Below are positions 3,193-54,549 of a stretch of DNA of 64,000 nt, piece after piece; the stretch's first letter is position 1, and every line of letters begins with the position of its first letter. Where the stretch lies: NCBI GenBank assembly GCA_964016885.1, contig OZ024745.1, positions 132,370,001-132,434,000 of the forward strand, read 5' to 3'. Source of the DNA: Eledone cirrhosa (Eukaryota). The notes under the pieces are model-generated. The model did not search any database and was not told the origin of the DNA. It saw only the letters and a program-made list of their open reading frames with translations. A program made the translations under genes and the position numbers.

Positions 3193-3868
3193 TAAAGGGT
3201 CCGTAGCACGCACACACACAAGATAGCAGCTACAATACGTAGAGACGGACCATAGAACGATACAGACCACATCAGAACACACAAAACCCTTGCGACTGAC
3301 CACAGCACCACCATGCACGCACCAAGCCATAATAACCATACTAAACGCCGCAAGGCCAGAAGTCGAATGGTGAATTGGTACAACGCCCCATACTCGATAC
3401 ACGTCGCTACTAATATTCCAGGAATCTGCTTCATGGCCGTTGACGAATCTTTTCCACCCATACACAAATACCAGAAGCTTTTTAACATACATTCAATAAA
3501 ATTCTATTTCTCCACTGCACCCAACCTAGCTGACACCGGAGGACCAAAACATAACCAGGCACCTCAATCAATATTTAATACAACAGAAAATAACAGCATA
3601 CAAACCATACACAACATTGAACACTAACACACCAACACTGACCCCATTGAGACAGACCAGCTCCAACAACATGCCACTAGCACAACGATTGATAGATGCA
3701 ATTGCAAAAAACGAGTGGAGTGCCCATTGGGAAACGGGTGCCTTAATAAGAACATCGTCTACCAGTGTGATGCTGTGACTAACCAGAAAAAATAGACTTA
3801 CATCGGTGCAACATCAAATACATTTAAGGAGCGGCTTTACAACCACAGAACCTCCTTCAATAACAGAT

Positions 3869-24861: not shown

Positions 24862-25494
24862 CATATATACATACACATACATATACACATATATACATAC
24901 ATATATATATATAAGCACTTTAATACATGAATACACTTACATCTAACTATACACATCAAACATATATATATTCACTTATTTATATACATTTTCACATATA
25001 TATACATACTTATGGACGTTTTTAGACACATTCATTATCGCATATTTGTACCTATTCTCATCAGCATATCTTTTCATTATTAGTATGGTAATTTAAGGTT
25101 ATTAATATATGTTGAGAAGAGATTGTTTTTATATTTTTCTAACTAGATTAAGGTTTATATAGTTGGGGGATGTCCCTCTTTTATGTAATATTCGGCTTGT
25201 AGTGGGAAAAAAGGGTTTTAGTTCTGTGACGGCAGAATAATGTTCGTTCAATTCTGTTATTCAGCAGTTTCTTCTTGTGTGTGATTATGTAATAAATCTC
25301 AAGATTACACAATTTGCAGAAATTTTGGCTCCTGGAAAAGCTTTGGGTTTTAGCTAATTTTTCCCATTTTAGGGTAAACTTTTGGTCGCTATCCCTGAGC
25401 GTCCAAGCTTTTTCTGCTAAAGTTGTTACATATATATATATATGTATATACAGTATGCATATATATATGTGTGTCTGTGTGTGTGTGCGATTGT

Positions 25495-52979: not shown

Positions 52980-53650
52980 TTCGTGCTGTTTGGCTTGAAT
53001 TTATTCTGGTGTCGTAGAATATAAATCTTGTCTATAATTTACAGTTGAGCCTTTTCTATAGTAAATGGCGGTGGCGAGTTGTTTCTATTTAGTTGTAACA
53101 TGGTTATCCAGTTACGAGTCTACAACTTCATTTCTTTCTATTTTTCTGTTGTCTAAATTAAAACTGATATTCAGTGTGTCAGTGAAGGGAGTCGGATTAA
53201 CACGTTTCCCAGTGAGAGGTTTGATGTCATTTATATTGCATGGATTTATCTGTTCTTTGAGAAGGATAATGTTCGAATTTGGTTAATATACGCTGTTCCA
53301 TTGCAAGTCTGCTCGAGCGTGTGGTATATTTTGGTTTAAGTTTGTCGGGGTTATACGATTGGAGATTATATTTGGTGGGTTGGATTGGTTGTGTATGACT
53401 GCAATAAAAGTTGGGGAGTGGTTTTGCAGAGATATATAGAAACAAAAAAATAATATGGCTGCAGTCGGAGGGAACCCGTCACTCCCATACCCGTAATAAG
53501 TGCAGGCTGGTTTGGGTTATATGGGCAGAGATAGGGTGTAATTTTCAATGGAGTCATTGATTTTTACTTCATGTCTTTTGTGGTATTTCTGTGGTGAGTG
53601 TGTTCCAGTGTAAATTTATGGATTGCTTTTGTTGAGATACTGGATAGCAT
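52980..53650 (-). mobile_element. Possible decayed Penelope RT fragment
   Basis: Weak minus-strand motifs GMGVTGS and TLNISFNL; adjoins a fold-back junction and a pLTR. Confidence 0.3.
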
Positions 53651-53750
53651 TTGTTTGGTATAAATTTGAGTGCGTTCAGTACAGTCATTTACACTGTACT
53701 GAACGCACTCAAATTTATAACAAATTTATACTCAAATTTATACCAAACAA
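53651..53750. repeat. Perfect 27-bp-arm hairpin with slipped duplications
   Basis: tataaatttgagtgcgttcagtacagt / actgtactgaacgcactcaaatttata. Confidence 0.93.
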
Positions 53751-54283
53751 TCGGCTCACTATTTTTATACTTGGCGCTTAATAGTTACAGGGTTCCAATT
53801 GAGTTTTAACTCTAATTTTCATATATATTTCTGCTCCCTCACAAGTTGAGCTTATTAAGTTGTGTGTGTTGGACTGTTATTTCTATTCAATACACGCTTA
53901 CCACGTTTGACTAGCGGAGCACGAGGTGACAAATTCATCTTTCTGTGTGAACGTTGGCAAATAGTGTTTGTTGCATTTAATCAGATTCTCTCGCTGATGA
54001 AGCCCAGGATTATCTGTTACAAACACACTCAGGGCGAAACAGATTAGGGATAATCTGTCCGAGAGATATAATGGTTATTGAGGCGGTTTGTATAATAATA
54101 TATCTTTATTTTATCATTCTGTCTGCTTCTTGGTTAAATATTTCAAACAAATGTGGTTTTTCAACCCTTGTAATTTTAGACACACGGTTTACTGTGTTTC
54201 TTACTATATATTATTAATCGGCTCAGTATTTTTATACTTGGAGCTTAATAGTTACAGGGTTCCAATTGAGTTTTAACTCTAAT

Positions 54284-54290
<7 letters not shown>
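53750..54290 (+). mobile_element. pLTR/retrozyme-like unit: about 70-bp direct repeats 467 bp apart enclosing an HHR
   Basis: tcggctca.tatttttatacttgg.gcttaatagttacagggttcc...ttttc at 53751 and 54218, each followed by TA repeats. Confidence 0.85.
53987..54066 (+). ncRNA. Canonical type I hammerhead ribozyme, predicted cleavage after C54059
   Basis: TCTCTCG-CTGATGA-A-GCCC[26-nt loop]GGGC-GAAA-CAGATTA ggga TAATCTG-T-C|CGAGAGA; all three stems and a GUC site. Confidence 0.93.
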
Positions 54291-54343
<53 letters not shown>

Positions 54344-54346
<3 letters not shown>

Positions 54347-54549
54347 AAATGGTATGACCCCGACGGCAGAGCTCAAGCCGTTTCGACGGCTATTTCTGTG
54401 TCCAGATATAACCGTCGAAACGGCTTCAGCTCTACCGTCGGGGTCATACCTTTTCCTATATATATATATATAACGAAGGAATTGTGGTAAGGAACCAGAT
54501 GGACCATAACGCACCAGAGTACTCAATACTTAGGGTAGTAGAGTGGGTA
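54344..54549. mobile_element. Family C fold-back (inverted repeat 54344-54457) plus a separate end fragment 54470-54549
   Basis: Homologous to the 11331 and 18463 elements. Confidence 0.88.

What the first reader, a model, noticed from the sequence alone, without database searches (positions are those of the whole stretch)
53750..54290. Canonical HHR inside a 467-bp unit with terminal direct repeats (retrozyme-like)
This is the best ribozyme in the window: 7-bp stem I, 8-bp stem III and a GUC site, so it should be active as a monomer. It lies between two about 70-bp direct repeats, each followed by TA repeats. That layout could arise from reverse transcription of more than one turn of a circular or tandem RNA, or from a PLE pLTR-plus-tail arrangement. 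No coding capacity is evident.
Basis: partly seen in the sequence, partly recalled or inferred. Interest (0 to 1): 0.72.

Follow-up and report, generated by a model that had tools for sequence, protein, structure and literature searches.

The report
Penelope-inserted hammerhead retrozyme copy
This is one copy of a 467-base non-coding repeat with a predicted self-cutting RNA, present at hundreds of places in this animal genome and likely pasted in by Penelope-type jumping-gene enzymes from a probably circular RNA; it is a new member of a known class (animal retrozymes).

Summary
Observation confirmed. A full type I hammerhead (53987-54066, predicted cut 54059/54060) lies in a 467-bp unit, with a repeat at 53749/54216. 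The locus is a 1.16-unit, 5'-truncated copy of a young dispersed family (333-432 exact probe matches), with arrays up to about 7 units. No Penelope-like element (PLE) ORF continued the unit in register in 115 loci.

The direct repeats are not LTRs. They are the 73-nt stretch between two internal AT-rich sites where insertions end: 52 of 53 two-armed copies with both ends at a site use one of each. That matches the PLE 'tail' between two RT start sites. Copies show no pile-up at the cut site, which fits a circular or uncleaved template. A short motif behind one site is shared with Hydra-clade PLEs (50 of 60 loci), the likely helper.

This copy has one ribozyme, so it cannot release a unit-length RNA itself, and a competing fold may limit cutting. 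No RNA data. It is a new member of the metazoan non-LTR retrozymes; the scan reported the same footprint earlier for other families in this genome.

The parts
53749..54288 (+). Whole insertion, 540 bp = 1.16 monomers, one-armed, 5'-truncated
53822..54288 (+). One full 467-nt monomer, 35% GC; 3 differences from the nearest sampled copy over monomer 10-440
53749..53821 (+).
53821..53828 (+). Internal (AT)4 tract = site B, one of two family end points (inferred RT start site)
53834..53851 (+). CTCC-N-GTTGAGC motif in a small predicted hairpin behind site B, shared with Hydra-clade PLE 5' regions
53964..53971 (+). Stretch predicted to pair with 54019-54026 in loop II and displace hammerhead stems I and II
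53987..54066 (+). Type I hammerhead ribozyme, predicted cut between 54059 and 54060
54205..54216 (+). Internal AT-rich tract = site A, second family end point, followed by a predicted GCTC..GAGC hairpin
54216..54288 (+). Second copy of the tail; 3' end of the insertion at site B
54288..54344 (.). (TA)28 genomic target tract
53650..53750 (.). 5' junction: about 35 nt of flanking DNA copied back in inverted orientation, with a 23-nt internal duplication. The left arm belongs to an older, unrelated repeat.

Best explanation
This is a 1.16-unit copy of a dispersed non-coding hammerhead repeat family (a non-LTR retrozyme) that was likely inserted by a Penelope-like reverse transcriptase/endonuclease, probably of the Hydra clade, copying a probably circular 467-nt RNA. 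Steps: (1) loci with two or more ribozymes would be transcribed and self-cut to monomers (inferred); (2) a host ligase would circularise them (inferred from PMC7229834); (3) the PLE protein would nick a (TA)n tract and start cDNA at one of two internal AT-rich sites 73-74 nt apart (end positions and targets shown; enzyme inferred); (4) copying runs through the ribozyme junction for a variable length (shown at DNA level); (5) where both sides of the break are extended, one arm ends at site A and the other at site B (shown). The window copy ends at site B, covers one turn plus the tail, and joins the flank by a short fold-back. With one ribozyme it is likely a dead-end copy.
For: Dispersed family: 353, 333 and 432 exact matches of three probes, controls 0. 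115 loci: one-armed 3' ends 29 at B, 24 at A, 1 elsewhere. Two-armed loci 61, of which 52 A+B, 1 A+A, 0 B+B and 8 with an end elsewhere. 107 of 115 right ends abut (TA)n. Arms cross the cut site up to 7 times; 2 of 178 inner ends lie within 232-246 against 5.7 expected. Calibrated copies just 5' of the cut are about 420-440 and just 3' about 470-490. Ribozyme conserved across subfamilies: 0 of 79 positions (core, stems, loop II) carry a common variant, against 43 of 329 elsewhere; the core is intact in 50 of 54 segments not selected on it. Rare variants are shared by both opposed arms in 9 loci. Hydra-clade ORFs (RW[KR], DKT, CxCx5C, C-terminal GIY-YIG) have the same pattern of two (TA)n-abutting ends, and the CTCC..GT[TC]GAGC motif lies within 60 nt of the ATG in 50 of 60 loci, against 0 of 30 Neptune-type loci. 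A purified PLE starts RT at two internal sites that bound the tail and extends both strands (PMC11167929).
Against: There is no RNA evidence and no cleavage assay. A long uncleaved multimer transcript would give the same read-through, and the purified PLE preferred unprocessed RNA (PMC11167929). No parent PLE with pLTR-wide similarity to the unit was found, so the Hydra link rests on one motif of about 15 nt plus end geometry. The 60 Hydra loci are only two families; the Neptune control is one family whose true 5' end may lie beyond the 1500 nt read. One subfamily of the unit has a changed motif. Within-locus units are not usually closer than the nearest outside copy (8 of 103 pairs closer, 14 equal), and the 7-unit array L038 is mosaic. 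No A-to-G strand bias (23 versus 38). Loci were sampled by exact probes, which favours young and longer copies.
Confidence: 0.75

Rival explanations
1. Same family and same PLE enzyme, but the template is a linear, uncleaved multimer transcript from a few source arrays; no circle is involved.
For: Arrays of about 7 units exist (L038, L177). A competing fold suppresses the hammerhead in long context. PAc uses unprocessed RNA (PMC11167929). 8 of 9 tested Xenopus dimers did not cleave (bioRxiv 10.64898/2026.07.22.740005).
Against: The ribozyme is conserved across subfamilies, so cutting appears to matter. The circle folds better than all 60 shuffles (z -3.7). Related animal elements form circles (PMC7229834).
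Confidence: 0.3
2. The unit is only the pLTR of an autonomous PLE, and the copies are 5'-truncated PLE ends.
For: All insertion hallmarks are those of PLEs. Hydra-type protein matches lie within 3.5 kb of the unit in 18 of 76 loci, and in L073 a truncated Hydra ORF abuts it.
Against: The monomer joins head to tail with itself, and no shared sequence continues it at a fixed position in 115 loci. 40 loci picked on the motif where an ORF would start gave none. Neighbouring ORFs vary in family, strand and distance, as expected for a shared (TA)n target.
Confidence: 0.08
3. A DNA-level minisatellite spread by recombination or duplication, with the hammerhead as a passenger.
For: Mosaic variants in L038 suggest some later local turnover. 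No RNA-editing signature.
Against: Fixed 3' ends, variable 5' truncation, inverted arms, the A+B rule and (TA)n targeting are retrotransposition marks.
Confidence: 0.03

Closest known systems
Metazoan non-LTR retrozymes (Cervera and de la Pena 2020, PMC7229834; Li, Clavereau, Pollet 2026, bioRxiv 10.64898/2026.07.22.740005)
   Same: Type I hammerhead in each unit of short, low-GC, non-coding tandem repeats; monomers, dimers and multimers dispersed; PLEs in the same genome.
   Different: 467 nt is above the 170-400 nt RNAs of the first paper but inside the 51-972 bp range of the preprint. Stem III is 8 bp, longer than the 1-2 bp forms described there for axolotl. The ribozyme is predicted to be blocked in the circle, which the first paper reports for plant and some mussel elements but not for most metazoan ones. 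No TSD could be read in (TA)n. Expression and circles are not shown here.
PLE pseudo-LTR with tail; Poseidon PAc (Frangieh et al. 2024, PMC11167929)
   Same: Two internal end points bounding a tail, AT-rich target, tandem and inverted 5'-truncated copies, read-through of the hammerhead.
   Different: No ORF; tail 73-74 nt rather than 30-40; start sites are AT tracts that could pair with the target, whereas PAc starts in an AC-rich stem loop without homology.
Hydra-clade PLEs (Craig et al. 2021, PMC8557442)
   Same: (TA)n targeting; in this genome two fixed ends and a shared motif behind the downstream end.
   Different: They are autonomous. No pLTR-wide similarity to the unit was found, and my scan found no canonical hammerhead core assignable to the full-length copies read, although the paper reports hammerheads in the clade.

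Membership tests
Metazoan non-LTR retrozyme | Type I hammerhead in each repeat unit | tested here: met
   (core intact in 50 of 54 and 97 of 101 segments)
Metazoan non-LTR retrozyme | Head-to-tail repeats of a few hundred bp with at least two consecutive ribozymes at some loci | tested here: met
   23 of 176 arms cross two or more cut sites. The window copy itself is a solo monomer.
Metazoan non-LTR retrozyme | Non-coding, low GC, no ORF attached | tested here: met
   35% GC
Metazoan non-LTR retrozyme | Self-cleavage of the RNA | not testable with these tools
   fold prediction only
Metazoan non-LTR retrozyme | Expressed as unit-length linear and circular RNA | not testable with these tools
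   no run on record as RNA was served
Autonomous EN+ PLE (unit as its pLTR) | RT plus GIY-YIG ORF contiguous with the pLTR | tested here: not met
   115 loci
Autonomous EN+ PLE (unit as its pLTR) | Tail, partial tandems, inverted 5'-truncated arm, microsatellite target | tested here: met
Hydra-clade PLE dependent element | pLTR-wide homology to a Hydra PLE | tested here: not met
   no BLAST match to 60 upstream regions, apart from one locus holding a copy of the unit itself, or to 12 longer loci
Hydra-clade PLE dependent element | Shared cis-motif at the insertion end point | tested here: inconclusive
   motif in 50 of 60 Hydra loci and 0 of 30 Neptune-type loci, but short, few families, and Poseidon-type not tested
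Plant LTR retrozyme | Type III hammerheads in two LTRs | tested here: not met
   the ribozyme is type I and lies outside the repeats

The most novel reading that the evidence does not exclude
A dimer of a Hydra-clade Penelope protein recognises a short hairpin signal on one small circular RNA and reverse-transcribes it from both ends of a (TA)n break, one subunit at each of two fixed start sites. The A+B rule would be the genomic footprint of this, and the shared motif would define the helper-parasite pairing of an animal retrozyme.
Probability: 0.4. Interest if true: 0.68.

Novelty: new member of a known kind. Interest (0 to 1): 0.42.

Why it matters
The class is known, and PLE mobilisation has been proposed from co-occurrence and pLTR similarity. 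This family adds footprints that make the proposed route testable: two mapped start sites, a strict one-of-each rule in two-armed insertions, read-through of the cut site, and a candidate recognition motif shared with young, intact Hydra ORFs in the same genome. My searches of the held library listed no title or abstract opening that describes these features for a retrozyme. The scan itself noted the same footprint in several other families, so this locus is a further example rather than a first.

Tried and rejected
Rfam did not detect the ribozyme.

Pfam gave nothing at E<=0.01 for 8 short frames in and beside the unit (one chance match at E 0.084) and nothing for two Hydra ORFs.

Hunt for an autonomous parent found none. 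It used protein searches with two Hydra N-termini and one Neptune-type piece, a motif-B pattern and 12 longer PLE loci. The 2.7-kb pair at L173 is a LINE-associated duplication, not a PLE. The Neptune bait built from L036 was out of frame, so Neptune screening rests on the ORF list (cut in the middle), a second in-frame bait and the shared-flank test.

The PLE fragment after L008 is a separate insertion behind a TA tract.

I first labelled the motif-sharing PLEs Nematis-like and corrected this to Hydra on motifs.

RNA-editing scars, a lead from e1-8803865, were not seen. Within-locus identity did not separate circle from multimer.

No RNA holder was listed. Contigs of four runs of unknown kind cover the unit far more deeply than the flank, but this gives no copy number or expression.

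Stem II and III coordinates were off by one; only one search is used for stem probabilities.

Rows dropped: L058 as a segmental duplicate of L057, two further duplicates of that place not fetched, and four overlapping loci. No supplements were read; those of PMC8557442 (Hydra sequences and hammerheads) and of the preprint may bear on the parent element and on whether this family is already catalogued.

Full report
OBSERVATION. The sequence holds a complete type I hammerhead at 53987-54066: stem I 7 bp, CUGAUGA plus one extra A, stem II 4 bp, GAAA, stem III 8 bp, and GUC ending at 54059. A strict scan finds it once in the window and never in 100 shuffled windows; Rfam misses it. An 80-nt direct repeat at 53749 and 54216 is 98% identical with spacing 467. 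The first copy is followed by an internal (AT)4, the second by (TA)28. No protein family matches the short frames.

THE FAMILY. The window lies in a 3.0-Gb genome; cephalopod-like is my inference from its microsatellites and the scan's notes. Three exact probes give 353, 333 and 432 matches, with reversed controls 0. Calibrated by match rate this is roughly 420-800 unit copies depending on position, a lower bound for diverged copies. I fetched 76 places from the first 100 matches and 40 places; after dropping one duplicate, 115 loci were analysed. Copies are head-to-tail arrays of under one to about seven units, in several subfamilies up to about 10% apart. The window copy differs at 3 positions from its nearest sampled relative over monomer 10-440, so it is young.

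ENDS. Outer ends fall at two internal AT-rich tracts about 74 nt apart: site A (window about 54211-54216) and site B (54288). One-armed copies end 29 times at B, 24 at A and once elsewhere. Of 61 two-armed copies with an inverted 5' arm, 52 have one end at A and one at B, 1 has A+A, none B+B, and 8 have an end elsewhere. 107 of 115 right ends abut (TA)n. Its 5' junction is not in TA; about 35 nt of the flanking older repeat are copied back in inverted orientation. Frangieh et al. (PMC11167929; parts 1-2 of 4 read) showed that a purified PLE nicks and extends both strands of AT-rich DNA and starts cDNA at two internal sites that bound the genomic tail. Craig et al. (PMC8557442; passages and section 11) describe partial tandems, inverted arms and tails as PLE hallmarks.

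NOT A PLE TERMINUS. No shared sequence or ORF continues the unit at a fixed position. Hydra-type protein matches occur within 3.5 kb in 18 of 76 loci, but in varied families, strands and distances, as expected for a shared target.

TEMPLATE. A linear monomer cut at both ends would stop cDNA at the cut. Instead only 2 of 178 inner ends lie near it (5.7 expected), arms cross it up to 7 times, and calibrated counts change by about a tenth across it. This fits a circle or an uncleaved multimer and does not separate them. Rare variants shared by both opposed arms in 9 loci fit one template molecule. However, within-locus pairs were closer than the nearest outside copy in only 8 of 103 comparisons, and no A-to-G bias was found.

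RIBOZYME. None of 79 hammerhead positions carries a common variant (the extra base after the core, which varies A/U, is left out), against 43 of 329 other positions. For the part not fixed by the probe the count is 0 of 44. This suggests selection on cutting. The fold is favoured in isolation but displaced by pairing of 53964-53971 with loop II in longer context, at a cost of 2.6 kcal/mol in the circle. The circle folds better than all 60 shuffles. Activity is untested. With one ribozyme this locus cannot release a monomer; the 23 of 176 arms with two or more could.

HELPER. The genome has many young PLEs with intact ORFs. Those with RW[KR], DKT and CxCx5C motifs are Hydra clade. Two such families also end at two fixed sites abutting (TA)n. 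They carry CTCC-N-GT[TC]GAGC just behind the downstream site in 50 of 60 loci, as the unit does at 53834; two further families show it, and 0 of 30 Neptune-type loci do. No wider similarity was found, so Hydra is a likely, not proven, helper.

COMPARISON AND VERDICT. The element meets the sequence-level definition of metazoan non-LTR retrozymes (PMC7229834; passages and Discussion read; bioRxiv 10.64898/2026.07.22.740005, parts 1-3 of 5 read). Expression, cutting and circles could not be tested. The scan has reported the two-site footprint and a Hydra link for other families. I had seen the two sites and the shared motif before reading those notes; the A+B count and the Hydra assignment came after them. 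Verdict: real, a new member of a known kind, interest 0.42.

Noticed in passing
window 54345-54456 and about 54474-54549: A long hairpin, MITE-like element and a second short repeat, both set in (TA)n right after the insertion; both recur beside other copies.
   Followed up: partly
window 3352-3858 (+) and 25187-25453 (-): Fragments of Hydra-type PLE ORFs.
   Followed up: no
window 53430-53690: Old repeat fragment, 13 other matches at about 70% identity, into whose end the unit is joined.
   Followed up: partly
L067:1500-2950, L080:1400-2480, L045 (oriented coordinates): A different 465-466-bp tandem and inverted family with a minimal hammerhead (3-bp stem III); it may be the 467-bp family of e1-8803865.
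   Followed up: partly
L052 and L086: Another hammerhead-like repeat with 483-bp spacing in L052 and a long stem II.
   Followed up: no
L100:4900-5750 (oriented, minus): A two-armed element with both AT-tract plus GCTC..GAGC sites like the unit's, but no hammerhead found by my scan; L087 and L110 hold further diverged relatives.
   Followed up: partly
L080 (= L006), 5' junction: The unit is joined at site A directly to the end of a Hydra-family pLTR at that family's own end point: a template switch or a nested insertion.
   Followed up: partly
L213-L224: Full-length Hydra-clade PLEs (709-785 aa) without a canonical hammerhead core in my scan, although the clade is described as carrying one; another ribozyme type is possible.
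   Followed up: no
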